From the NCBI GenBank assembly GCA_030649135.1, contig JAUSGI010000008.1, positions 32,001 through 96,000 on the forward strand: 64,000 nucleotides of DNA, given 5' to 3'. The position numbers and the translations under genes are program-made. Origin of the DNA: a bacterium (GTDB lineage: Bacteria; Patescibacteriota; Minisyncoccia; Phycocordibacterales; Zambryskibacteraceae). Below are positions 53 to 10,716 of this stretch, piece after piece. How positions within the stretch are numbered: the stretch's first letter is position 1; each line of letters begins with the position of its first letter. The notes under the pieces were generated by a model. The model ran no database searches. It saw nothing but the letters and a program-made list of their open reading frames with translations, and had not been told where the DNA came from.

Positions 53-3000
53 ATGACAAAACTCATGGGGGTAATTCTTAGCTTAGTGCTAATGGCCGGG
101 TCGGTCCAAGCGGCCACCTTAGATGACATAGTATTTACAGAAATAATGGCGACTCCCAATGCTGTGGCTGATGCCGACGGCGAGTGGATTGAAGTTCAGA
201 ACAATTCTTTAAGCCCAGTAGATATTGGAGGTTGGATATTAAACGATGGTTCAGATCACACTATTTCCGGACCTTATTCTATACCAGCGGGTGAGAAAGC
301 GGTAATCTGTCGCGACAATGATTCCTCTGTAAATGGAGGAGTTAAATGCCATTATCAATCAGTTATGGTCCTAACTGACATTGGTAAAACTCTGCAACTT
401 CTTGAGGGGGTGACCACTATAAACGAGGCTACATACGGAGACACTGCTGGAAATTCGGGAAAATCAGTTTATATTCCTAGTGGAAGTTTCGAGTCTGTTA
501 GTCAATTTGGAAATGGCGATTATGGAACTCCGGCTGGGAATGGTGCATCAATTGGAACTCATTCCTACGCTTCGATTCAGATTGCAATTGATGCGGCAAT
601 TTCCGGTAACACGATAGATGTTGGAGCGGGGACTTACGCGGAGAATGTTTCGCTTGACGGAAAGACAAATCTTACAATTCAAGGCGCTGGAGAGGCAACC
701 ATTATTGAACCAGCAAGCGGAATTGGTTTTGCAATTAAAAATTCAAGCGGCATAACAATAAAGAATCTTAAAATACATACCACAGGAACCAATGCCCATG
801 GTGTCTGGGTTGCGGGAACTCCGAATGGCGGAGCAACGGCGGTAACTGGTCTTACCGTACAAGATGACACCATAGTTGTTGACGGTTATTCCAGCGGCAT
901 TTACGCCGAACAAGTTGATACAACACCTCATTCTGGCTGGCTAATAACAGGGAACACTATAACTGTAAATCCTGGCGCTGGTGTTACTGGTGATGGAATG
1001 GACTTGCACGATGTGTCGGGTTCGGAGGTAAGCTACAACACAATAATTCTGAATACTCCGACTGATAGCACAAATGTTCTCTGGACAAGCGAATTGTCAA
1101 ATCTTTCTAGTCTCATATTCTCCAATAACACCATCAGTGGCTCAAGCGGTAGTGAGATAGCAATCCTAACTGATTTTCTGGATGCTCTAGCAGATACATC
1201 AATTACCACCGTAACAGTAAGTGGAAACACGTTCAGTAATTGGGGTTCTAGGGCCCTAAGAGTCGGGACGGCTAACGGAACCGGAGCGGTGACGGAAATC
1301 GCAGTAAATTCAAACATATTCCAAATGGCCGCCGACACAACAGAAGTTATCGGCGGCACGGCTGCGTCAAGTGCGACTGGTAGCGGCAATATCTTCAATG
1401 TTAGTGGGACAGCAAAAATTCAAAAAGCGGTAGACGGGGCATTTTCTGGCGACACGATAAATGTCGCAGCGGGGACTTATGACGAACAGGTCGTAATAGA
1501 TGGAGAAGACCTGATATTACAAGGTGTTGGTGATACAACTATCATCCGACCATCTGCACCCGCAACGCTTACCCAGACTTATACCTTCCCAGCCGGAACT
1601 TTTTGGTCTGGCACAACTGCATCAAGTATTATCCTAGTGGAAAATGCCAGCGCTGTTACTATAAAAGATCTTAAAGTAGACGGTATTAATGTTACCAGTT
1701 TGCCCTTAACAGGTTCGCCTGACAGACTCGTCGGAGTTCTTTTGGGAGTATCTTCAGGTACCATTGATAATGCTACGGTCACTTCCATTAAAACAGCTGG
1801 CTATGCAAACCGTACATATGGCATTGAAGTAAGTGGCGCTGATAGTGGCACTTACAGCGTTGAAGTTAAAAGTTCTCATATAACAGACTGGGCTCGTAAT
1901 GGGATTGTTGCAGATGGAACTAATCTTACGGCCAACATCAATCACAACACGCTTGTAGGTCCTGGTACTATCTCTGGGCAGGTCGCTAACGGCATTCTTT
2001 TCATTGGTGGAGCTGCTGGTAACACTACAAGTAATACTATCAGCGGAATGCACTACAACGCAGATCCAGTATCTCGCAGTGCCGGTATCTTGATTTATGG
2101 CGCAACCACGGCCGGAATCTTGATAGACCAAAATGACATTTCCGATACGGATGATGGAATAAATTTGTCGGCCAGTTCTCATAACGCGACTGTCAGCAAC
2201 AACAATCTGCATAATAATCTAGAAGTAGGTATACAACTAGAAAACGGGACAGCAAACAACGCCATAACTGGGAACACAATTGTTAATAATACAATGGCTG
2301 GTATACGTTTTGGCGGTGCAGGTGATCCGGTTCCCGCGGAAGCGGATACTCCACCTGGGGCAGGTAATGTTGCTAATGATAAAAATACGATTACTGGTAA
2401 CGCGAACGGTATAGTAAATTACGATACGGGTCTTGGACAGATATTTGATGCCGCCAACAACTGGTGGGGCAACGTGAGCGGACCGTTCAACACTACAAGC
2501 AATCCTTTGGGAACCGGTGATTCTATTTCCGACAATGTAAACTTTGTTCCGTGGTATTCCACTAGCGGAATGACGACGCTTGTTTCCGCAAACATGATTG
2601 CTTACAATACCGCCTTGGATGCCGTTAGTCAGACGGACTACACGACTGCAAGCTGGTCTGCCTACCAAGCAATTGTGACTGCCAATACGAGGACCGACCA
2701 AAACACTCAAACTGAAGTTGATGACGCGACGGCCGCAATCACTACCGCGCAACTTGATCTGATTGCTATTGCCGACCTCACTGATTACAACACCGCTTTA
2801 GACGCAGTTGTTGAAAGCGATTATACGACCGAAAGCTGGGCAACGTATCAAGCTATTGTGGACGCCAATGTGGTAACCGACCAACATACCCAAGCTGAAG
2901 TTGATACAGCAATCGATAATATTACCATCGCGCAAGATGATTTAGTGGCAACACTGGACGTAGCAAAAACAACGGCACATGAAGCTCTTACAACTGCTCG

Positions 3001-3985
3001 CGCGTTATATACAGATACAAACTACACCGCTGAAAATCTAGTGGTCTTAAACGGATTCAAGTCGGATGGCGATATCGCGATTGACTCCGCTTCAGACTTA
3101 GCCGGAGTGTCCACAGCGCAGAACACAGCTACTGCTGGAATGGCCGGTGTGTTAAAAAATACACAAACAGCTCCTGACGATGACGGAAATGCGACAATGG
3201 ACTCTGACACAACGGAAGTGGTTATCACAGACCCGGATCAACCTGTTGACATTACAATTGAAAGTGGCACAGAAAATCCGACAATTGATGTTAGTGCATT
3301 TATTACCGATGGAATAGGAATATTGCCGGAGATTACAATCAATTCCGACGTAGCGGATGTTATAATTCCGGATAGTACGACAGTGACTGGCCCGACTGAT
3401 TGGGATGGGGTCATTAGCGTACCAACGGCTACCACTACTACTGGCACTGCCCCAGCTGGGTTTAGCGTTGGCGGTACTGTTATCTCGGTCGGTTCGTCTC
3501 AAGGAACATTAACCTTCAGTAATCCCGTTACGATATTACTTGCAGGTGTTACTGGAACAGTTGGCTACAAACCAGCTGGTTCAGATACTTGGCAGACGAT
3601 AACCAATGTTTGTGCCGACCCGTATGCAACTCCAGGCAACCCTCCAGCCGGTAGCGAATGCGCAATATCAAATGGTACTGATACTAAAATTGTCACCTTC
3701 CACTTCACGGAATTTGGAGAATTAGATTCTATTCCAGCTACGCCTATCCCTCCTCGTTCAAGCAGGGCAGGAGACTTTTCTCCGGCCGCGCGCAGAGCAA
3801 TCTTGGCAGCGACACCCAATGCATCAGCAGTATCGGTTGTAGGTCAAGTCCTTGGAGCCTTCACTGAAGATGAAAGACAGGCTCAAATTGTGTCCGTCCG
3901 CGGGCAACTTATAGAGAAGATAAATCAACTAATCGGTCTCTTGCGGGTGCAACTTGCAGCGGCCATAACAGCAGGCGATCAATAA
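53..3985 (+). CDS. Large secreted surface protein: signal peptide, lamin-tail domain (LTD), right-handed parallel beta-helix (NosD-like) repeats, WWG..PWY cap module, two FIVAR-like ~55-aa tandem repeats, conserved C-terminal tail
   Basis: N-terminus MTKLMGVILSLVLMAGSVQA is signal-like. The segment IVFTEIMATPNAVADADGEWIEVQNN...GGWILND is typical of LTD. There are many GxxxxxN/T beta-helix rungs. The motif WWGNVSGPFNTTSNPLGTGDSISDNVNFVPWY is shared with the 7764-9692 protein. Repeats of form YNTALDAV..DYTT.SW..YQAIV.AN..TDQ.TQ.EVD.A are FIVAR-like. Confidence 0.85.
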   Translation: MTKLMGVILSLVLMAGSVQAATLDDIVFTEIMATPNAVADADGEWIEVQNNSLSPVDIGGWILNDGSDHTISGPYSIPAGEKAVICRDNDSSVNGGVKCHYQSVMVLTDIGKTLQLLEGVTTINEATYGDTAGNSGKSVYIPSGSFESVSQFGNGDYGTPAGNGASIGTHSYASIQIAIDAAISGNTIDVGAGTYAENVSLDGKTNLTIQGAGEATIIEPASGIGFAIKNSSGITIKNLKIHTTGTNAHGVWVAGTPNGGATAVTGLTVQDDTIVVDGYSSGIYAEQVDTTPHSGWLITGNTITVNPGAGVTGDGMDLHDVSGSEVSYNTIILNTPTDSTNVLWTSELSNLSSLIFSNNTISGSSGSEIAILTDFLDALADTSITTVTVSGNTFSNWGSRALRVGTANGTGAVTEIAVNSNIFQMAADTTEVIGGTAASSATGSGNIFNVSGTAKIQKAVDGAFSGDTINVAAGTYDEQVVIDGEDLILQGVGDTTIIRPSAPATLTQTYTFPAGTFWSGTTASSIILVENASAVTIKDLKVDGINVTSLPLTGSPDRLVGVLLGVSSGTIDNATVTSIKTAGYANRTYGIEVSGADSGTYSVEVKSSHITDWARNGIVADGTNLTANINHNTLVGPGTISGQVANGILFIGGAAGNTTSNTISGMHYNADPVSRSAGILIYGATTAGILIDQNDISDTDDGINLSASSHNATVSNNNLHNNLEVGIQLENGTANNAITGNTIVNNTMAGIRFGGAGDPVPAEADTPPGAGNVANDKNTITGNANGIVNYDTGLGQIFDAANNWWGNVSGPFNTTSNPLGTGDSISDNVNFVPWYSTSGMTTLVSANMIAYNTALDAVSQTDYTTASWSAYQAIVTANTRTDQNTQTEVDDATAAITTAQLDLIAIADLTDYNTALDAVVESDYTTESWATYQAIVDANVVTDQHTQAEVDTAIDNITIAQDDLVATLDVAKTTAHEALTTARALYTDTNYTAENLVVLNGFKSDGDIAIDSASDLAGVSTAQNTATAGMAGVLKNTQTAPDDDGNATMDSDTTEVVITDPDQPVDITIESGTENPTIDVSAFITDGIGILPEITINSDVADVIIPDSTTVTGPTDWDGVISVPTATTTTGTAPAGFSVGGTVISVGSSQGTLTFSNPVTILLAGVTGTVGYKPAGSDTWQTITNVCADPYATPGNPPAGSECAISNGTDTKIVTFHFTEFGELDSIPATPIPPRSSRAGDFSPAARRAILAATPNASAVSVVGQVLGAFTEDERQAQIVSVRGQLIEKINQLIGLLRVQLAAAITAGDQ

Positions 3986-3998
3986 CTCCCAAACGCTC

Positions 3999-4514
3999 CT
4001 ACGCGTGGTTGTATAACAGTTTAAGTTTCTCAAGCCCTCGGTGTGCTTGCACGGCCATAGCATTCTTTGATTGTCCGGTGATAAGAGCCATTTCTTTGAG
4101 TGACAGATTTTGCACGTACCGCATGCGTATCACTTTCTGGTATTTTGTCGGAAGATGTTGAATTAATAGGAGTGCCGCTTTCCCGTCTAGGGTGTTGAAA
4201 AGAAGTTCGGAATGTTCAACGCTCGGCTCGTAGCCTTTTTCAAGTAGGACATCAAGGGAAGTGGTTTTGTGCTTCCGATATTCATCAATGATAAGATTAT
4301 TGAGGACGTGGTAGAGAAAAGCTTTCATGACATCAATCTTCCCTCCTTTCACGAGGTAGGCCCATGTTTTCATGAAGGTGTCTTGTACTAAGTCTTCGCC
4401 CCTAGCATGGTCGTGTATCTTGAAAAAGGCATGTGCATTGAGTCCCTTTTCGTAGTCATTGTGTGCTAGGGTTAATACTGTCTGTTGGCGCACCTTCTGT
4501 TTGGGGGTCATCAT
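3999..4514 (-). CDS. RNA polymerase sigma factor, ECF (sigma-70 family) subfamily
   Basis: Region 2 DLVQDTFMKTW and region 4 LSLKEMALITGQSKNAMAVQAHRGLEKLK are present. Size 171 aa. Confidence 0.85.
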   Translation of the reverse strand: MMTPKQKVRQQTVLTLAHNDYEKGLNAHAFFKIHDHARGEDLVQDTFMKTWAYLVKGGKIDVMKAFLYHVLNNLIIDEYRKHKTTSLDVLLEKGYEPSVEHSELLFNTLDGKAALLLIQHLPTKYQKVIRMRYVQNLSLKEMALITGQSKNAMAVQAHRGLEKLKLLYNHA

Positions 4515-4768: not shown

Positions 4769-5152
4769 ATGCAAACACCCAAAACAATACTAATCATAGA
4801 AGATGAGAAAAGTCTTCGCGATGCCATCGTGGACATTCTACGTCTCAAAAACTTCTTGTCTCTTGAGGCAAAAAATGGTAGAGAGGGGGTGGAGCTCGCG
4901 CTCTCCAAACACCCTGACCTCATTTTGCTTGACCTTATTATGCCGGAGATGGACGGTATAATTGCGCTCAAAAATATTCGAGAAGATGCTTGGGGGAAAA
5001 AAGTTCCCATTATTATTCTAACGAATTTGAGTGCGACCAATGAACAGTTTGGGGATGATAAGGCGACGCTTAAGGCAACGCATTATTTAATTAAATCGGA
5101 TTGGAAGCTGCATGATATCGCAAAGAAGATCGAAGAAATATTGGAAACTTAA
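4769..5152 (+). CDS. Stand-alone response regulator receiver (CheY-like)
   Basis: ILIIEDEKSLRD, the phospho-acceptor context DLILLDLIMPEMDG, and a Lys-containing C-terminus. 127 aa with no output domain. Confidence 0.85.
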   Translation: MQTPKTILIIEDEKSLRDAIVDILRLKNFLSLEAKNGREGVELALSKHPDLILLDLIMPEMDGIIALKNIREDAWGKKVPIIILTNLSATNEQFGDDKATLKATHYLIKSDWKLHDIAKKIEEILET

Positions 5153-5160
5153 AATACTCC

Positions 5161-7182
5161 ATGAATAAAAAAACTATCATCTCTGCGTCCGATGATATAA
5201 TCCTAAATCTCAAAGTTTCGGCTAAGGAAAAAGAAATTGTCAGGCGCAAACTTGCTGTAACAGCAGAGAGGCTTGCTGCGACGGCAGTGAAACTTGCCAT
5301 AACAGCTAAGGAAAGAGAAAGTGTGAGGATTAAGCTAGCGGTGACTGCCGAAGAAAAGGAACATGTCAGGCTTAAGTTAGTGGTGACCGCAGAGAAGCTT
5401 GCTGTAATCGCAGAGAAGCTTGCTGTGACTGCCGAGGAAAAGGAAAGTGTCAGGCGCAAACTTGCCGTGACGGCAGCCAAACTTGCAGTAACGGCAGCTA
5501 AACTCTCCGCAACTACTGAGGAAAAAGAAAGTGTGAGACGCAAGAAGCTAGTCGCGACAGCAGCTAAGCTTGCTGTAACAGCAGAGAAGCTTGCTGCGAC
5601 CGCCAAAGAAAAGGAGAGTGTCAGGCGCAAACTTGCTGTGACCGCAGCCAAACTTGCTGTGACAGCAGAGAAGCTTGCCGCGACGGCCAAGGAAAAAGAA
5701 ATTGTTAGGCGTAAACTCGTCGTGACGGCAGAAAAGCTAGTCGTGACGGCAGCCAAACTCGCCGTGACAGCAGAGAAGCTTGCCGCGACGGCAGCCAAAC
5801 TCGCAGTAACTGCTAAGGAAAAAGAAATTGTTAGGCGTAAACTTGCAGCGACTGCTAAGGAAAAAGAAAGTGTCAGGCGCAAGCTGGTAGTGACTGCTAA
5901 GGAAAAAGAAAGTGTCAGGCGTAAGCTGGTGGTGACAGCCAAGGAAAAGGAGAGCGTCAGGCGTAAGCTGGTGGTGACAGCAGCTAAACTTGCTGTAACT
6001 GCAGCGAAACTCAAAAAGTCGTACGAAACACTCGAGAAGAAAGTGCTTGAACGAACCAAGAGTCTAGAAATGTCCAGAGCAAAGGAAGAGGCGGTTTTGC
6101 TCTCGATTGGTGACGGACTTCTTGTGACTAATGAAAAAGGAAATGTTATTATTATAAATAAGACAGCTGAAAAACTACTCGGTATTAAGAGTAAAGAAGC
6201 TATGGGAAAGGTCTTTTCCGAAGCCGTTCTTTTGGTAGATGAAAAAGGGGTGCCTATTCCGTCAGAGAAACATCCCGTAAGGATGGCTCTAGTAAGCGGC
6301 ATTACTACTGCCACTACTATTGTAGGTTCCACTTACTATAATGTGCGGAAAGATAAAACGAAATTTCCTGTGGCAATTATGGTCACGCCCGTTATTCTTG
6401 ACGGGAAGGTGATTGGAACAATTGAAGTTTTTCGAGATATTACCGCCGAGCGGGAAATTGATAAAGCCAAAACCGAATTTGTTTCCCTTGCTTCACACCA
6501 GCTCCGCACCCCGCTTTCTACGGTCAATTGGTACGCGGAAATGCTTCTGGCCGGAGATGTGGGGGAGTTGAATGAAAAACAAAAGAAATATTTAGATGAG
6601 GTATATCGCAGTAATCAGCGAATGGTTGAATTGGTAAACGCCCTTTTGGATGTCGCTTCTCTTGAAATTGGTACCTTTGTGGTTGAGCCGGAACCAACCG
6701 ATATAATCGAACTAGCGCAAAGTGTCATAGACGAACAAAAACCGCAGATTGAGGCCAAAAAAATAGTATTTTCTTTTTCATTCGGGAAAAATATTTCACT
6801 TATGCAGGCCGACCCCAAACTCCTGCGAATGATAGTGCAAAATATCTTGTCAAATGCGGTAAAATATACTCATGAAGGCGGGAAAATCGATATGTCGATT
6901 TCCTTAGCGGACAAAAATAATATTCTTCTGAAAGTCGATGATACGGGCTACGGCATACCCCAAAATCAGCAAGATAAAATATTTACCAAGCTGTTTCGGG
7001 CCGATAATGTCAGAGATAAAGACACGGACGGCACGGGCCTCGGGCTCTATATTGTAAAGTCAGTCGTTGAAAATTCTGGCGGGAAAATCTGGTTTAAGTC
7101 CGTGGGCGGGGAAGAAAATAAAGGCACCACCTTTTATGTATCGCTGCCTTTGGATGGGGCGAAAAAGCCGGCTAATATATAA
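5161..7182 (+). CDS. Sensor histidine kinase with N-terminal heptad-repeat coiled coil, PAS domain, HisKA and HATPase_c, no transmembrane segment
   Basis: H-box FVSLASHQLRTPLSTVNWYAEML. ATP-lid motifs N box (NAVKYT), DDTGYGIP and GTGLGLYIVK. A PAS-like block after the repeats. The N-terminal ~270 aa are repeats of AEKLAVTAKEKESVRRKLAVT. Confidence 0.85.
   Translation: MNKKTIISASDDIILNLKVSAKEKEIVRRKLAVTAERLAATAVKLAITAKERESVRIKLAVTAEEKEHVRLKLVVTAEKLAVIAEKLAVTAEEKESVRRKLAVTAAKLAVTAAKLSATTEEKESVRRKKLVATAAKLAVTAEKLAATAKEKESVRRKLAVTAAKLAVTAEKLAATAKEKEIVRRKLVVTAEKLVVTAAKLAVTAEKLAATAAKLAVTAKEKEIVRRKLAATAKEKESVRRKLVVTAKEKESVRRKLVVTAKEKESVRRKLVVTAAKLAVTAAKLKKSYETLEKKVLERTKSLEMSRAKEEAVLLSIGDGLLVTNEKGNVIIINKTAEKLLGIKSKEAMGKVFSEAVLLVDEKGVPIPSEKHPVRMALVSGITTATTIVGSTYYNVRKDKTKFPVAIMVTPVILDGKVIGTIEVFRDITAEREIDKAKTEFVSLASHQLRTPLSTVNWYAEMLLAGDVGELNEKQKKYLDEVYRSNQRMVELVNALLDVASLEIGTFVVEPEPTDIIELAQSVIDEQKPQIEAKKIVFSFSFGKNISLMQADPKLLRMIVQNILSNAVKYTHEGGKIDMSISLADKNNILLKVDDTGYGIPQNQQDKIFTKLFRADNVRDKDTDGTGLGLYIVKSVVENSGGKIWFKSVGGEENKGTTFYVSLPLDGAKKPANI
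5209..6015 (+). repeat. Tandem array of ~63-nt (21-codon, 3x heptad) near-identical repeats inside the histidine kinase gene
   Basis: Direct reading shows the same unit recurring. One instance is gcagagaagcttgctgcgaccgccaaagaaaaggagagtgtcaggcgcaaacttgctgtgacc. There are three consecutive copies of AKEKESVRRKLVVT near the 3' end. The long ORF on the opposite strand (5091..6332) is a repeat shadow. Confidence 0.8.
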
Positions 7183-7190
7183 TTAATCAT

Positions 7191-7661
7191 ATGTCCAACA
7201 AATCTGTGAAAAAGCAAACCATTCTGGTAATAGAGGATGAGAAACCTCTGCTTGAGGCCATTAATGACAAACTTGAAAAAAGCGGTTTCGGTGTGATTGC
7301 GGCCCGTAGTGTGGAGCAAGCGTTCAACGCGAATATCGCGAAAAACGGCCTAGGTGTCATAAATGTTCGAAGCATCGAGCAAGCGCTTAATTATCTTGAA
7401 AGTTTGGAACGAGTAGACGCAATTTGGCTGGACCATCACCTTTTGGGCAAAGAAGATGGTCTTGATTTTGTAAAAAAATTTAAAGCAAATGGCGGGCGCT
7501 GGAGTAAAATTCCTGTCTTCGTAGTTTCGAATGCCGCCAGTCCCAAAACTGTCAAGTCTTATGTAGATTCCGGTGTGAGCAAGTACTATGTCAAATCCGA
7601 CCATCGACTCGATGAAATTATCAAAGACATTCAATCTTTTTTAGACCATTCGGCGAAATAA
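7191..7661 (+). CDS. Response regulator receiver with internal 17-aa tandem duplication
   Basis: ILVIEDEKPLLE and the acceptor Asp in AIWLDHHLLGKEDG. The beta2-alpha2 segment is present twice: GFGVIAARSVEQAFN and GLGVINVRSIEQALN. Confidence 0.8.
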   Translation: MSNKSVKKQTILVIEDEKPLLEAINDKLEKSGFGVIAARSVEQAFNANIAKNGLGVINVRSIEQALNYLESLERVDAIWLDHHLLGKEDGLDFVKKFKANGGRWSKIPVFVVSNAASPKTVKSYVDSGVSKYYVKSDHRLDEIIKDIQSFLDHSAK

Positions 7662-7763: not shown

Positions 7764-9692
7764 ATGGAAAAATCTAATAAGGGTTCAATTATACTAACCG
7801 TGCTGACCGTCTCCCTTGTAATCGGTTTTCTGGGGTCAATGGTCGCGTATGCATTCGTAAGTCCAGCGACAGTCAATCTTGGAACAGCGGCTGATTTTGC
7901 GATTCTCTCGAAAGCGGGAATCACTAACGTTCCCACCTCTGTCATTACTGGGAATATCGGAACAAGTTTAGATGAAGCCAGTACTGATACTGCTTTCGCA
8001 GGTATCACGTGTGGCCAAGTGACGGGGTCAATATACTCGTTCAACTCGACAGGTCCTCTCCCTTGTGTGTTAGCTGACTCTGTATTGGCTACAACTGTAG
8101 TAAGTACGGCCGTAGGCGATATGGAAACTGCAATAACCGATGCCAACAGCCGAACACCTGATGATATCGACCTTGCATTCAATGCGGGCGTAGGATGTGC
8201 TCTTGGCACTTGTGACCTCGCGGGGCTTACTCTCGCTCCCGGCGTCTATACATTCACAGCTCCTGGCAATGTCATCATCACAAACGATGTTACCCTCTCG
8301 GGTAGCCCAAGTGATATTTGGATATTCATCATCCCGGGGACTCTTGATATCAGCTCTGCCAAGAAGGTTCTTCTAACCGGCGGCGCAGTATCTGACAATG
8401 TCTTCTGGTCAGTTGCTGGCGCGACTCAACTTCAAACATCTTCTACGTTCGAGGGAAATATCCTTGAAGCAGGAACGCCTCTTGCGATGCTCTCCGGTGC
8501 TACACTACACGGAAGAGCACTGTCGAAATTCGCAGTTACGCTCGATGCCAATACCGTTACGACTCCTTCCGCCACACCACCTCCGACAACCGGTCCGGTT
8601 TTCGTGGAAGAGGGGGTTGCGAACGGTACTCTTGATTTAGGAGAACTATTCTTCAACACCGTTCAATCAGCAATCGATGACGCAGGTACTCTTTCCGGCG
8701 ACACCATTCACGTTACCGCAGGAACTTACAACGAAAGTATCGTAGTTAACAAATCATTAACGCTCAATTCCGTGGGAGCAGTCATAAACGGCTCGGCGGG
8801 ACAAAATGGTGTTTCTATCGGGGCAAGTGATGTTACGGTTAACGGCTTCGAAGTTACTTCTAGCGGTCTTAGTGGAGTCTACGGTATCGCTGAAACAACG
8901 CCTGTCAGTAACACAGTTATTACCCACAACGTCGTTCACGGCTTTCCCGCATTGGGTATTGCGTTGGCGGCTGGTTCTGTCAATGCAGAAGTTACAACTA
9001 ACGAAGTCTACGATGTGTACGGAGGCATCTATCTTTCTACCGGCGCAATCGGTGCACTTGTAGACGGTAACGATGTTCACGACTTAGTAAGCGGTGCTGG
9101 TCCTGACCAGGGAGCCGCGGTCGCGTTTGAAGGAAACAACACAGATGTTTCGGTAACCAACAACACTCTCACAAATAACGCTTTCGGTCTCTATGTGTGG
9201 TCTGCGTTCGGTTCTGACTTTACCGGCACTGTAGTTGAGCATAACAAATTTGTAGGCAACACAGACGGTGTGGAAAATACCAATACTGGTATTATCAACG
9301 CTTCTCCGAACTGGTGGGGAGCTGTCACAGGTCCGACTCATGCCACCAACCCTAGCGGTCTAGGCGATGCGGTGAGCGACAATGTTACTTTTGACCCATG
9401 GTATGTGGACGAGGCTATGACCACGCTGTCAAATGCCCCGGCTCCAGCTCCCGCTCCAGCACCAGAACCAGAACCAGAATCAAGGGGTTCAAGGTCCGGT
9501 GACTCACGAAGAGTTTCTGCTCAAACTGCCAATGTAGTGGTGGGCGAAATCCTCGGCATCTTTACCGAAGCTGAAAGACTGGCACAGATTGCGACTGTTA
9601 AGGTTCAACTGTCCTCTCTTATCCGCCAACTGATCGGTTTATTACAGGCCCAATTGATTACGGCGCTTCAGACAGAGATTCGGAACTATTAA
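7764..9692 (+). CDS. Secreted/anchored protein: N-terminal TM or signal anchor, DUF3494 (ice-binding-protein-like) domain, right-handed beta-helix, WWG..PWY cap, PAPAPAPEPEPE linker, conserved C-terminal tail
   Basis: LGTAADFAILSKAGITNVPTSVITGNIGTS and DNVFWSVAGATQLQTSSTFEGNILEAGTPLAMLSGATLHGRAL are the canonical DUF3494 start and end. WWGAVTGPTHATNPSGLGDAVSDNVTFDPWY and the tail ILGIFTEAERLAQIATVKVQLSSLIRQLIGLLQAQL match the 53-3985 protein. Confidence 0.85.
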   Translation: MEKSNKGSIILTVLTVSLVIGFLGSMVAYAFVSPATVNLGTAADFAILSKAGITNVPTSVITGNIGTSLDEASTDTAFAGITCGQVTGSIYSFNSTGPLPCVLADSVLATTVVSTAVGDMETAITDANSRTPDDIDLAFNAGVGCALGTCDLAGLTLAPGVYTFTAPGNVIITNDVTLSGSPSDIWIFIIPGTLDISSAKKVLLTGGAVSDNVFWSVAGATQLQTSSTFEGNILEAGTPLAMLSGATLHGRALSKFAVTLDANTVTTPSATPPPTTGPVFVEEGVANGTLDLGELFFNTVQSAIDDAGTLSGDTIHVTAGTYNESIVVNKSLTLNSVGAVINGSAGQNGVSIGASDVTVNGFEVTSSGLSGVYGIAETTPVSNTVITHNVVHGFPALGIALAAGSVNAEVTTNEVYDVYGGIYLSTGAIGALVDGNDVHDLVSGAGPDQGAAVAFEGNNTDVSVTNNTLTNNAFGLYVWSAFGSDFTGTVVEHNKFVGNTDGVENTNTGIINASPNWWGAVTGPTHATNPSGLGDAVSDNVTFDPWYVDEAMTTLSNAPAPAPAPAPEPEPESRGSRSGDSRRVSAQTANVVVGEILGIFTEAERLAQIATVKVQLSSLIRQLIGLLQAQLITALQTEIRNY

Positions 9693-9732
9693 CACCGATA
9701 CTCTCACTCTGGACTGATTAAAAGAACCACCC

Positions 9733-9765
9733 CGGCATCACGCCGGGGCGGTTCTTTATCCTCAC
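9733..9765 (+). terminator. Rho-independent terminator after the beta-helix gene
   Basis: ccccggcatcacgccgggg hairpin followed by cggttcttt. Confidence 0.5.
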
Positions 9766-9783
9766 TAAATAAGGTAAAATGAC

Positions 9784-10716
9784 ATGATGCGCCGAAAACT
9801 AAAGAATACCTTTATACCGCATCGCGGTAATCACCACCACCCCCATATACTGCGGCATAAGTCTCTCTCTGCCGTCTTGACTGTCGTAGTGCTCCTCGAG
9901 TTTACGATGCTTCTAAGTCCATTCGTGTGGCCGCGTCTTGGTATAGAGCTTGCGACGGTATTGCCCTCTGTGGTTACCCTTCTTACCAATAATGCCCGCG
10001 CGGAGGGCCACATCGCGAATGTAAAAGTGAACGATATTTTGACTCTCGCCGCGCAGGCCAAAGCCGATGACATGGCCTCCAAGGGATATTTTTCCCATAT
10101 AGGTCCAGATGGTACCAAACCGTGGTACTGGTTTAAGCAGGCAGGGTATCAGTATCAGTATGCCGGTGAAAATTTGGCGGTGAACTTCGCTAATTCGGAG
10201 GGGGTAGTAAAGGCTTGGCAGAATTCTCCCATGCATAATCTTAATCTTCTTGGCCCGCGCTATACCGAGACCGGAGTAGGTATTGCCACCGGTATGTACA
10301 AGGGTAGAGAGGCTGTGTTTGTGGTGCAGTTTCTCGCTTCATCACAGAAGACAGAGGCGGGTGTAGTAAATGCTACCTCCACCTTGCCTAAAGTATCTGG
10401 TATTCCCAGCCCTCTGAATATGGTGAATCCATTGGTGCTCGGCGTATCCACGGAGGATACCGGCAACCAATCCATATGGTTGCGCATTATCTCATCGCCA
10501 CGAACCTATGGCACGTATGCACTTTTCGTACTCACCTTCCTGTTCTTACTGGTACTTCTTACCGGTTGGGGCAGGCATCGTCCTAGGGCGTTAGTGTATG
10601 GAGTAATGATGGTGGGGCTACTGGCTGGAGTAATATTTATGAACAAGTATCTGACATTTCCGCAACCGGAACTCTCGGAAGATACTCAGAATGGGGCATC
10701 ATTTAACTCGCGGTAA
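9784..10716 (+). CDS. CAP/SCP/PR-1-like domain protein with His-rich N-terminus and TM segments
   Basis: GYFSHIGPDG...AGENLA...VKAWQNSPMHNLNLLGPRYTETGVGIA fits CAP family motifs. Hydrophobic helices at the N- and C-terminus. Confidence 0.65.
   Translation: MMRRKLKNTFIPHRGNHHHPHILRHKSLSAVLTVVVLLEFTMLLSPFVWPRLGIELATVLPSVVTLLTNNARAEGHIANVKVNDILTLAAQAKADDMASKGYFSHIGPDGTKPWYWFKQAGYQYQYAGENLAVNFANSEGVVKAWQNSPMHNLNLLGPRYTETGVGIATGMYKGREAVFVVQFLASSQKTEAGVVNATSTLPKVSGIPSPLNMVNPLVLGVSTEDTGNQSIWLRIISSPRTYGTYALFVLTFLFLLVLLTGWGRHRPRALVYGVMMVGLLAGVIFMNKYLTFPQPELSEDTQNGASFNSR

What the first reader, a model, noticed from the sequence alone, without database searches (positions are those of the whole stretch)
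3760..3985. Conserved ~45-aa C-terminal tail shared by the two giant secreted proteins (second copy 9500-9692): candidate novel sorting/anchoring module
The two tails are ...GDFSPAARRAILAATPNASAVSVVGQVLGAFTEDERQAQIVSVRGQLIEKINQLIGLLRVQLAAA and ...GDSRRVSAQTANVVVGEILGIFTEAERLAQIATVKVQLSSLIRQLIGLLQAQLITA. The shared pattern is R.S.R.GD....V.AQ....VG..LG.FTE.ER.AQI..V..QL..I.QLIGLL..QL. In the DUF3494 protein the tail is preceded by a Pro/Ala/Glu linker. It is not LPXTG, PEP-CTERM, T9SS or a beta-barrel signal. It is an amphipathic helix, possibly a coiled-coil docking, S-layer or pilus-association element.
Basis: seen in the sequence. Interest (0 to 1): 0.55.

Follow-up and report, generated by a model that had tools for sequence, protein, structure and literature searches.

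The report
Conserved C-terminal tail, CPR surface proteins
Two secreted proteins in this window end in the same unnamed ~47-residue tail (a GxVLGA motif plus one long helix), which also ends about 50 other surface-protein families of tiny CPR (Parcubacteria-type) bacteria, sits where sister proteins carry a cell-wall-binding domain, and is encoded next to a CPR-specific membrane CAP protein, so it is probably a new way of holding proteins at the cell surface.

Summary
ORF 53..3985 (1310 aa) and ORF 7764..9692 (642 aa) share a C-terminal tail: 49% identity over 71 aa, pairwise E 1e-13, and only two copies in the window.

It is not a private duplication. An exhaustive profile search found 50 true protein clusters. 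In 46 of them the GxVLG motif lies 41-58 residues from the C-terminus.

These proteins carry Sec signal peptides and varied extracellular domains (Ig-like, beta-helix, ice-binding-like, S8 protease, MBG/YDG). Named sources are Parcubacteria, Minisyncoccia and Zambryskibacteria.

The tail has no Pfam, NCBIfam or PDB match. Its anatomy is a flexible linker, an invariant G-x-V-L-G-A-[FS]-T, a short loop, then a roughly 35-residue heptad-patterned Gln/Leu helix. The helix is not a transmembrane segment.

In every locus where the downstream DNA was available, the tail gene directly precedes a CPR-specific membrane CAP-domain gene. Four of four distant CAP genes are preceded by surface proteins ending in linker-GxVLGA-PG_binding_1.

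The best reading is a non-covalent surface-retention or docking module, possibly working with the CAP protein. This is inferred, not shown.

Protein 1 also has a ZU5/GAIN-like domain with an HF[TS]xF motif just before the tail, which suggests autoproteolysis.

The parts
53..3985 (+). Tail-bearing gene 1: a 1310-aa secreted protein (signal peptide nt 53-112; LTD; beta-helix/NosD repeats; ZU5/GAIN-like domain; tail). GenBank MDO8590148.1.
3233..3730 (+). Pre-tail beta-sandwich domain (residues 1061-1226), ZU5/GAIN-like. The invariant H-F-[TS]-x-F motif lies at nt 3701-3715 (HFTEF), at the turn between the last two strands. It is a predicted autoproteolytic site.
3731..3841 (+). Flexible Pro/Ser/Arg-rich linker of protein 1 (residues 1227-1263), including the RSSRAGD segment shared with close relatives.
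   Evidence: Low pLDDT (42-61) in the AF2 model; sequence
3842..3865 (+). GQVLGAFT: the G-x-V-L-G-A-[FS]-T boundary motif of tail 1.
   Evidence: G3 and G7 invariant, V5 and L6 >= 90% conserved in 47 tails; coordinates
3866..3970 (+). Tail 1 helix (residues 1272-1306, EDERQAQIVSVRGQLIEKINQLIGLLRVQLAAAIT). AGDQ and the stop codon follow (nt 3971-3985).
   Evidence: AF2 gives a single helix at model residues 212-246 (the model is the last 250 residues of protein 1), pLDDT 77-91; heptad pattern
7764..9692 (+). Tail-bearing gene 2: a 642-aa secreted protein (signal peptide; Ice_binding/DUF3494; beta-helix; tail). GenBank MDO8590153.1.
9429..9542 (+). Pro/Ala/Glu then Arg/Ser/Gly linker of protein 2 (residues 556-593).
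9543..9566 (+). GEILGIFT: the boundary motif of tail 2.
9567..9692 (+). Tail 2 helix (residues 602-636, EAERLAQIATVKVQLSSLIRQLIGLLQAQLITALQ), followed by TEIRNY and the stop codon.
   Evidence: Alignment with tail 1; coordinates
9784..10716 (+). Adjacent gene for a polytopic membrane CAP-domain protein (310 aa). It has TM1 at nt 9865-9930, the CAP domain, a linker carrying LVLGVST at nt 10432-10452, TM2 at 10516-10569 and TM3 at 10591-10641. It is the candidate partner. GenBank MDO8590154.1.
   Evidence: Pfam PF00188; AF2 pLDDT 86.6; conserved adjacency to tail genes; VLGxx[TS] in 60/120 homologues

Best explanation
The tail is a self-contained C-terminal module found, as far as sampled, only in CPR/Patescibacteria (mainly Parcubacteria/Minisyncoccia). 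It hangs on a disordered linker at the end of Sec-exported surface proteins.

It has two parts. The first is an invariant short linear motif, G-x-V-L-G-A-[FS]-T. The second, after a 2-14-residue loop, is a single helix of about 35 residues, rich in Gln, Leu, Ile and Ala, that ends 2-6 residues before the stop codon. The helix has a heptad pattern with hydrophobic a, b, d and e positions and Gln at g.

The most likely function is non-covalent retention and organisation of the passenger protein at the cell surface. The helix would pack against other helices, either as homo-oligomers or by docking onto a partner. The favoured partner is the three-TM CAP-domain protein encoded directly downstream.

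In this role the helix fills the position that a peptidoglycan-binding PG_binding_1 domain fills in sister proteins, behind the same GxVLGA motif. The GxVLGA motif, which also occurs in the CAP protein's own juxtamembrane linker, is probably the element recognised in trans.

In protein 1, and in 17 of 50 family members, a ZU5/GAIN-like domain with HF|T directly precedes the linker. After self-cleavage the passenger would stay bound only non-covalently to the stub made of the last strand, the linker and the tail.

Shown: conservation, terminal position, secreted context, helical and non-TM character, and gene adjacency. Inferred: anchoring, the partner, and cleavage.
For: 1. Real family. There are 50 cluster representatives at E <= 1e-3 among 1.84e9 proteins. 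The GxVLG motif lies 41-58 aa from the C-terminus in 46 of 50. Further copies were found in a Parcubacteria MAG, a Saccharibacteria-labelled MAG and Hainich groundwater contigs.

2. Extracellular context. 32 of 50 have clear signal peptides; most of the others start inside a domain and look like 5' fragments or have a truncated signal peptide. Passenger domains are Bact_surface_Ig-like (17), Beta_helix (11), NosD, MBG_2, YDG, Ice_binding, PG_binding_1, S8 and LTD. Five members are only signal peptide + linker + tail (83-106 aa), so the tail is autonomous.

3. Structure. AF2 gives one 35-aa helix (pLDDT 77-91) after a low-confidence linker. Column statistics show conserved I18, I/V21, L25, L28, I29, L32, I33, L35, L36 and L40, Gln at 15, 17, 24, 31, 37 and 39, and K/R22 at 98%.

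4. Positional equivalence to a wall-binding domain. Four of four distant CAP homologues (37-44% id) have, immediately upstream, a secreted Ig-like surface protein ending in Gly/Ser linker - G[QE]VLGA - PG_binding_1. Two of these add a terminal helix. The L017 protein has the same ...VWTKHFSTF pre-tail domain. P0024 and P0051 carry GxVLGA-PG_binding_1 followed by GxVLGA-helix, and P0023 carries helix then PG_binding_1.

5. Gene link to CAP. A CAP gene directly follows the tail gene or genes in the window (gene 2), L001, L002, L005, L007, L008, L010, L011 and L012, and in L004 with one small ORF between. These make up about 7 different wider neighbourhoods, with spacers of 35-126 nt.

6. Motif shared with CAP. 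Strict [VI]LGxx[TS] occurs in the post-CAP-domain linker of 60 of 120 CAP homologues, and the family consensus reads VLGxET. In about 130,000 aa of six-frame ORFs from the loci, 18 of 19 strict GxVLGxx[TSA] matches are in the surface-protein gene or the CAP gene.
Against: - No direct evidence for anchoring, oligomerisation or CAP binding.
- AF2 does not dock the CAP protein's own VLG linker onto its CAP domain (pLDDT 51-60).
- Window gene 1 is not itself followed by CAP. It lies 3.8 kb upstream of gene 2, with a sigma factor and two-component genes between.
- CAP adjacency also holds for PG_binding_1-only proteins that lack the helix (L017, L019). The link may therefore be to the GxVLGA motif, or to surface proteins in general, rather than to the helix.
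- A GC-rich hairpin lies in the 91-nt spacer before the window's CAP gene, so co-transcription is not assured.
- The forward contexts were found through the tail, and several are close relatives. The reverse sample has only four loci.
- The family is small (50 clusters), so it could be a lineage-specific elaboration.
Confidence: 0.5

Rival explanations
1. The tail is only an oligomerisation (e.g. trimerisation or tetramerisation) coiled coil that multimerises the passenger domains. Retention at the surface, if any, comes from elsewhere.
For: The heptad pattern has a wide hydrophobic face. AF2 shows a straight 35-aa helix. The helix co-occurs with PG_binding_1 in P0023, P0024, P0051, L013 and L015, so the two are not simply interchangeable. 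The only PDB sequence resemblance is a designed coiled coil, and it is not significant (E 2.3).
Against: This does not explain the invariant GxVLGA motif, the strict terminal position, the tail-only mini-proteins (83-106 aa), or the conserved CAP neighbour. Many passengers (Ig-like arrays, DUF3494) are not known to need oligomerisation; this last point is from my own knowledge.
Confidence: 0.2
2. The tail is a cleavable sorting signal. GxVLG|A is a processing or transpeptidation site used by a dedicated enzyme (the CAP protein, a sortase or a signal-peptidase-like enzyme). The helix or the PG_binding_1 domain only holds the substrate near the membrane and is then discarded.
For: The motif is invariant at the boundary of every C-terminal module, whatever follows it. 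V at -3 and G at -1 fit the signal peptidase I rule (my own knowledge). The neighbouring gene is constant, as in dedicated sorting-enzyme/substrate pairs. In L007 a sortase gene lies directly upstream, and that tail carries an extra PGFPNTGFAPR end.
Against: CAP domains have no established peptidase or transpeptidase activity in bacteria (Meheust et al. list the CPR family as of unknown function). No sortase is present in the 64-kb window. Strong position-specific conservation of the whole helix, and a folded PG-binding domain after the motif in sister proteins, are unexpected for a discarded propeptide.
Confidence: 0.15
3. The helix is a C-terminal membrane anchor, either a transmembrane helix or an in-plane helix.
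For: The last ~23 residues are largely uncharged. The maximum Kyte-Doolittle 19-residue mean reaches 0.94-1.95, median 1.44.
Against: The biological-hydrophobicity sum of the best 19-residue window is +3.8 to +11.4 kcal/mol (median +6.9; 0 of 47 below 1.5), against a median of -3.5 for the CAP proteins' TM helices. There are 3-4 conserved Gln per window, no basic C-terminal cluster, and a hydrophobic moment of only about 0.2. The scale values were recalled from the literature.
Confidence: 0.07
4. The tail is conserved mainly as a DNA-level recombination handle that lets different passenger cassettes be swapped in front of the CAP gene.
For: The S8-protease gene in L005 is a chimera. Its pre-tail domain and motif region match window gene 1 (71-79% DNA identity). 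From the motif onward it matches window gene 2 plus CAP (80%). The breakpoint is therefore inside the tail. The tail in L001 resembles tail 1 but sits in the slot of gene 2.
Against: Tails diverge to 40-50% protein identity while keeping hydrophobic, Gln, Gly and Lys positions. The window's two tails share only 45 nt at 76% identity. This is protein-level selection. Recombination is more likely a consequence of the shared tail than its function.
Confidence: 0.05

Closest known systems
GxVLGA-PG_binding_1 C-terminal modules of sister CPR surface proteins (genes upstream of CAP genes; L013, L015, L017, L019)
   Same: They share the gene slot directly upstream of the membrane CAP gene, the Sec signal, the Ig-like and ZU5-like passengers, the Gly/Ser linker and the G[QE]VLGA[ST] boundary motif.
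   Different: A three-helix PG_binding_1 domain (PF01471) follows the motif instead of a single helix. hhalign aligns only the 9-residue motif, and Pfam PG_binding_1 does not hit the tails.
Non-covalent C-terminal surface-attachment modules of Gram-positive bacteria (WxL domain with its Csc gene clusters, SLH, LysM, GW) - from my own knowledge
   Same: These are C-terminal add-ons to diverse Sec-secreted proteins that lack a TM or LPXTG and retain them at the envelope. WxL genes also cluster with membrane-protein partner genes.
   Different: There is no sequence or fold relationship. Those modules are larger folded domains that bind peptidoglycan or secondary wall polymers, whereas this one is a short motif plus a single helix.
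Sortase/LPXTG and exosortase/PEP-CTERM-type sorting signals
   Same: They take the same C-terminal position, carry a short invariant motif upstream of a hydrophobic-leaning helix, and often have a dedicated neighbouring membrane-protein gene.
   Different: The tail has no LPXTG or PEP motif, no true TM segment and no basic end. The neighbouring gene is a CAP-domain protein, not a sortase or exosortase. Only the variant in L007 has a sortase neighbour and an FPNTG-like end.
ZU5 / GAIN(GPS) / FIIND / Nup98 autoproteolytic beta-sandwich superfamily (for the pre-tail domain of protein 1); bacterial ZU5 domains in surface proteins were predicted by Zhang et al. 2012 (PMC3482391)
   Different: Pfam ZU5 and GPS models do not hit it. 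The CxH motif that Zhang et al. describe is absent (the sequence reads T-[KF]-H-F-T). Cleavage is untested.
CPR-specific membrane CAP-domain family (3.6k.fam08817 of Meheust et al., bioRxiv 10.1101/335083)
   Same: The gene downstream of tail gene 2 belongs to this family: PF00188 plus TM segments, with more than 1376 homologues labelled Parcubacteria or Patescibacteria.
   Different: It is the neighbour, not the tail itself. Its function is unknown, and I found no mention of the pairing with GxVLGA-tagged surface proteins in the papers searched.

Membership tests
LPXTG sortase sorting signal | LPXTG-like pentapeptide near the C-terminus | tested here: not met
   Neither window tail contains an LPXTG-like motif. 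Only the variants P0021 and P0044 end in PGFP[ND]TGFAP[RK].
LPXTG sortase sorting signal | Hydrophobic transmembrane segment followed by a basic tail after the motif | tested here: not met
   The best 19-residue window is +7.5 and +7.7 kcal/mol for the two tails. The ends are AGDQ and TEIRNY. No sortase was found in the window.
PEP-CTERM / GlyGly-CTERM / PGF-CTERM (exosortase, rhombosortase, archaeosortase signals) | Short motif + TM helix + Arg-rich cluster at the extreme C-terminus; matched by NCBIfam models | tested here: not met
   NCBIfam scan of the tails at E <= 10 gave no such model. There is no TM segment and no basic cluster.
T9SS C-terminal domain | Beta-sandwich CTD of about 80-100 aa | tested here: not met
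   The tail is a single alpha-helix. Pfam and NCBIfam give no hit.
PG_binding_1 (PF01471) | Match to the three-helix peptidoglycan-binding domain profile | tested here: not met
   Pfam at E <= 10 gives no hit on the tails. A profile-profile comparison aligns only the GxVLGA motif (9 columns).
Coiled-coil helices (structural class) | Heptad periodicity of conserved hydrophobic residues on a long helix | tested here: met
   The a/d positions are I18, I/V21, L25, L28, L32 and L35, with additional hydrophobic e and b positions. AF2 shows a 35-aa helix.
Coiled-coil helices (structural class) | Actual self- or hetero-association | not testable with these tools
   Only single-chain prediction of window or database sequences is allowed, so no multimer model could be made.
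ZU5/GAIN/Nup98 autoproteolytic superfamily (pre-tail domain, nt 3233-3730) | Beta-sandwich fold of the superfamily | tested here: met
   [not shown]
ZU5/GAIN/Nup98 autoproteolytic superfamily (pre-tail domain, nt 3233-3730) | H-[FL]-[ST] at the turn between the last two strands | tested here: met
   H157 and F158 are invariant and position 159 is T or S in 17 of 17 sequences. T159 is the only non-strand residue between strands 150-158 and 160-166.
ZU5/GAIN/Nup98 autoproteolytic superfamily (pre-tail domain, nt 3233-3730) | Sequence-profile match (Pfam ZU5/GPS) and demonstrated self-cleavage | tested here: not met
   Pfam gave no hit on window:3200-3982 at E <= 10, and the PDB profile search found nothing. 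Cleavage itself cannot be tested with these tools.
CAP/SCP superfamily (neighbour gene 9784..10716) | Match to PF00188 above the gathering score | tested here: met
   59.9 bits against a cut-off of 21.1. The AF2 model has pLDDT 86.6.

The most novel reading that the evidence does not exclude
GxVLGA-tagged C-terminal modules (helix and/or PG_binding_1) are the ligands or substrates of the CPR-specific membrane CAP protein. Together they would form a previously unrecognised surface-protein display system unique to CPR bacteria, analogous in logic to sortase/LPXTG. In some members it would be combined with a GAIN-like autoproteolytic joint that makes the passenger releasable under force.
Probability: 0.25. 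Interest if true: 0.85.

Novelty: new variant of a known kind. Interest (0 to 1): 0.62.

Why it matters
CPR/Patescibacteria are ultra-small, mostly episymbiotic bacteria. Their surface proteins are thought to mediate host attachment, yet how those proteins are held on the cell is largely unknown.

This tail defines an unannotated family that marks a set of diverse surface proteins: adhesin-like Ig arrays, beta-helix and ice-binding-like proteins, and a subtilase.

It also ties these proteins by gene order to the membrane CAP-domain protein, which is one of the few protein families nearly unique to and widespread in CPR and which has no known function. That gives a concrete, testable hypothesis for the CAP protein: that it binds or processes GxVLGA-tagged proteins.

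The tail HMM would let annotators flag the surface proteome in these genomes.

The ZU5/GAIN-like HF|T domain directly upstream suggests a eukaryote-like 'cleaved but tethered' architecture in bacteria.

Tried and rejected
- Word-indexed protein search. A search with the 2-tail profile found nothing. A search with the 47-tail profile found only one protein, P0037. The index misses this short module, so the exhaustive search was needed.
- Pfam, NCBIfam and PDB sequence searches of the tails found no family.
- P0011 (5191 aa, 16 stretches) was rejected as a false positive. It is a summation of weak 'AGKIIGIYTNEDGD' repeat matches.
- Transmembrane anchor was rejected on hydrophobicity.
- Homology of the helix to PG_binding_1 was rejected, because hhalign aligns only the motif.
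- Relation to the N-terminal 'ELQAQINALMAQLAALQ' helix that precedes PG_binding_1 in many CPR proteins (L002 ORF 949..2898) is only weak (E 0.066). I treat it as similar in style, with homology not shown.
- The idea that the CAP protein's own VLG linker docks on its CAP domain got no support from AF2. The linker is low confidence.
- A sortase or a PG_binding_1 protein in the window: none was found by tblastn.
- UGA-recoding as an explanation for the short 'PGFPNTGFAPR*' end of P0021 was rejected. The stop is TAG TAA, and the next gene starts 42 nt later.
- Literature searches for a described CPR sorting signal, or for a CAP-surface protein link, found none.
Full report
**1. Observation**

ORF 53..3985 (+, 1310 aa) carries LTD and beta-helix/NosD domains. 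ORF 7764..9692 (+, 642 aa) carries Ice_binding/DUF3494 and beta-helix domains.

BLASTP aligns the tails at 35/71 identities, E 1e-13. tblastn finds only these two copies in the 64-kb window. At the DNA level they share only 45 nt at 76%, so they are old paralogous modules and not a fresh duplication.

**2. A real family**

A two-sequence tail profile searched exhaustively against 1.84 billion cluster representatives returned 51 hits at E <= 1e-3, 9 of them at E <= 1e-10. One hit, P0011, is a repeat-summation artefact.

In 46 of the 50 true members a G-x-[VI]-[LF]-G motif lies 41-58 residues from the C-terminus.

DNA-pattern scans added four more loci:
- L001, a Parcubacteria MAG with the same tail -> CAP -> FtsW -> MurG -> GluRS -> M23 gene order as the window.
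- L002, a Saccharibacteria-labelled MAG.
- L003 and L004, two Hainich groundwater contigs.

Source names, where they exist, are Candidatus Parcubacteria, Candidatus Zambryskibacteria and Minisyncoccia. The annotations read 'hypothetical protein', 'ice-binding family protein' or similar. Pfam, NCBIfam and PDB sequence searches do not recognise the tail.

**3. Anatomy**

The alignment of 47 tails (A3) gives this consensus: xxG[QER]VLGA[FS]T - loop of 2-14 residues - E.QAQI..[IV]K.QL..LI.QLI.LLQAQLAAA[IV].AG.. followed by the stop.

G3, G7 and L36 are invariant. V5, L6, I29 and L32 are at least 90% conserved. Position 22 is K or R in 98% of tails.

In heptad terms:
- a = I18, L25, L32
- d = I/V21, L28, L35
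- e = K22, I29, L36
- b = x, x, I33, L40
- g = Q17, Q24, Q31

This is a wide hydrophobic face flanked by Gln. That pattern suits helix-helix packing more than a surface-seeking amphipathic helix; the hydrophobic moment is about 0.2.

The helix is not a TM segment. The best 19-residue window sums to a median of +6.9 kcal/mol on the biological hydrophobicity scale (0 of 47 below 1.5), against -3.5 for the TM helices of the neighbouring CAP proteins (scale values recalled from the literature).

AF2 of the last 250 residues of protein 1, with a 17-sequence alignment, gives three regions:
- a confident beta-sandwich (model residues 1-166);
- a low-confidence linker that includes GQVLGAFT;
- one uninterrupted helix (model residues 212-246, pLDDT 77-91), which is nt 3866-3970.

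**4. Who carries it**

32 of 50 members show clear signal peptides. Most of the others start inside a domain and look like 5' fragments or have a truncated signal peptide.

Passenger domains are all extracellular types: Bact_surface_Ig-like 17, Beta_helix 11, NosD 6, MBG_2 3, YDG 3, Ice_binding 3, PG_binding_1 3, HYR 2, Peptidase_S8 1 and LTD 1.

Five members are only signal peptide + short linker + tail (83-106 aa). The tail is therefore an autonomous, portable module. It is not specific to beta-helix proteins and never occurs with cytoplasmic domains.

**5. Gene context**

In the window (gene 2) and in L001, L002, L005, L007, L008, L010, L011 and L012, the tail gene is followed directly, on the same strand, by a gene for a membrane CAP-domain protein. 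L008 has two adjacent tail genes. In L004 one small ORF intervenes. The remaining neighbours differ, giving about seven distinct neighbourhoods.

Window gene 1 is the exception. It lies 3.8 kb upstream of gene 2, separated from it by an ECF sigma factor gene and two-component system genes.

The CAP protein has N-in topology with TM1, an extracellular CAP domain, a linker, then TM2 and TM3 (AF2 pLDDT 86.6). It belongs to a family of more than 1376 homologues labelled Parcubacteria or Patescibacteria. Meheust et al. singled this family out as widespread, almost unique to CPR and of unknown function.

**6. Reverse test**

I looked up four distant CAP homologues on long contigs (37-44% identity). 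All four have, immediately upstream, a secreted Ig-like surface protein that ends in Gly/Ser linker - G[QE]VLGA[ST] - PG_binding_1. Two of them (L013, L015) add a C-terminal charged helix. The L017 protein also has the '...DLLVWTKHFSTF' pre-tail domain seen in many tail proteins.

Mixed forms exist within the family:
- P0024 and P0051 have GxVLGA-PG_binding_1 followed by GxVLGA-helix.
- P0023 has GxVLGA-helix followed by PG_binding_1.

hhalign shows that the tail and the PG modules share only the motif. GxVLGA is therefore a constant leader element. What follows it is a peptidoglycan-binding domain, the Gln/Leu helix, or both, always in the gene slot before CAP.

The CAP proteins carry the motif too. 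Strict [VI]LGxx[TS] is found in the linker before TM2 in 60 of 120 homologues, and the family consensus reads VLGxET; the window copy is LVLGVST at nt 10432-10452. Across about 130,000 aa of six-frame ORFs in all loci, 18 of 19 strict motif matches fall in the surface-protein gene or the CAP gene.

**7. Interpretation**

The module sits exactly where sister proteins have a wall-binding domain. It occurs only on exported proteins, is tethered by a flexible linker, and is genetically coupled to a membrane protein. The best-supported reading is a non-covalent surface-retention or docking module. The helix would mediate protein-protein association, with itself or with a partner, and the CAP protein is the prime candidate partner. 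GxVLGA would be the element recognised in trans.

This is inference. AF2 does not dock the CAP protein's own motif onto its CAP domain. CAP adjacency also holds for helix-less PG_binding_1 proteins. A GC-rich hairpin lies between gene 2 and CAP in the window.

The rivals, weighed in the Rival explanations section, are:
- a pure oligomerisation domain;
- a cleavable sorting signal with VLG|A as the processing site, which gains some support from the sortase neighbour and the 'PGFPNTGFAPR' end in L007;
- a membrane anchor, disfavoured;
- a recombination handle.

**8. Side finding that bears on mechanism**

The domain just before the linker of protein 1 (nt 3233-3730) is also present in 17 of 50 members and in L017. 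It is a beta-sandwich whose best structural matches are:
- adhesion-GPCR GAIN domains (CD97 9.5; GPR126 7.6; BAI3 7.5; CELSR1 7.0);
- FIIND of CARD8 and NLRP1, and Nup98.

These form the autoproteolytic ZU5 superfamily as defined by Zhang et al. 2012.

The 17-sequence alignment has invariant W, two Cys, T155, H157, F158 and F161, and T or S at position 159. This gives the motif H-F-[TS]-x-F, placed at the one-residue turn between the last two strands. From my own knowledge, this is where HF|S and HL|T self-cleavage occurs in PIDD, Nup98 and GAIN.

If the domain is active, the passenger would remain attached only through the last beta-strand to a stub made of that strand, the linker, GxVLGA and the helix. 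That is a 'cleaved but tethered' design. Pfam ZU5 and GPS models do not hit the domain, and cleavage is untested.

**9. Evolution**

The L005 gene in the same slot is a 1612-aa subtilase. Its pre-tail domain and motif region match window gene 1 (71-79% DNA identity). From the motif onward it matches window gene 2 and CAP (80%). A recombination junction therefore lies inside the tail. The shared tails evidently allow passenger swapping in front of the CAP gene.

**10. Novelty and verdict**

The interpretation (a novel C-terminal anchoring or sorting module, helical) is largely borne out in kind, but it is broader in its passenger repertoire and more structured (motif + helix, CAP link) than proposed.

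I found no description of the module or of the CAP pairing in Pfam, NCBIfam, PDB or the papers searched.

I rate it a new variant of a known kind, namely C-terminal surface-retention modules. Interest is about 0.6, and higher if the CAP protein proves to be its receptor or processing enzyme.

Noticed in passing
[not shown]
   Followed up: partly
window 9784-10716; L001, L002, L004, L005, L007, L008, L010-L013, L015, L017, L019: The CPR-specific three-TM CAP-domain gene always lies directly downstream of a secreted surface-protein gene whose C-terminal module starts with GxVLGA. Half of the CAP homologues carry VLGxx[TS] in their own juxtamembrane linker (window copy LVLGVST at nt 10432-10452).
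   Followed up: partly
L005 14035-15825 versus window 3169-3898 and 9569-10694: The syntenic gene in a related genome is a 1612-aa S8 subtilase. Its 3' end is a chimera of window gene 1 (pre-tail domain and motif) and window gene 2 (helix and CAP), with the junction inside the tail. This points to passenger-cassette swapping by recombination at the tails.
   Followed up: partly
L007 4689-6653: One tail variant (P0021; also the 87-aa P0044) continues after the helix with PGFP[ND]TGFAP[RK] and then stops (TAG TAA, no TM segment). In L007 a sortase gene lies immediately upstream. This may be an atypical sortase signal without a membrane anchor.
   Followed up: partly
L008 406-4567; GenBank MFZ2049168/9 and MFZ2770151/2: Tail-bearing genes often occur as adjacent pairs, as in L008 where two tail genes precede CAP. 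The consecutive accession numbers in Minisyncoccia MAGs suggest adjacent pairs as well. The window has two tail genes within 8 kb.
   Followed up: no
window 5161-7182 (repeats about 5248-5981): The PAS/HisKA/HATPase histidine kinase between the two tail genes has an N-terminal region of about 290 aa made of tandem 21/42/84-nt repeats (KLAVTAEKLAATAKEKESVRR...). The repeats also create a long shadow ORF on the minus strand (5091..6332).
   Followed up: partly
window 3999-4514 (-), 4769-5152, 7191-7661: An ECF-type sigma-70 gene lies directly after tail gene 1, on the opposite strand. Two response-regulator genes flank the kinase. L007 also has an ECF sigma gene just upstream of its sortase/tail/CAP cluster, so surface-protein expression may be regulated locally.
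   Followed up: no
window 9730-9748: A hairpin of 7 GC pairs (CCCCGGC-ATCAC-GCCGGGG) with a weak T tail sits in the 91-nt spacer between tail gene 2 and the CAP gene. It could be a terminator or attenuator. In other loci the spacer is 1-126 nt.
   Followed up: no
L002 949-2898: A neighbouring CPR protein has the reverse arrangement: signal peptide, then an 'IAELQAQINALMAQLAALQ' helix, then PG_binding_1. The helix only weakly resembles the tail profile (E 0.066), so heptad Gln/Leu helices next to wall-binding domains may be a wider CPR theme.
   Followed up: partly
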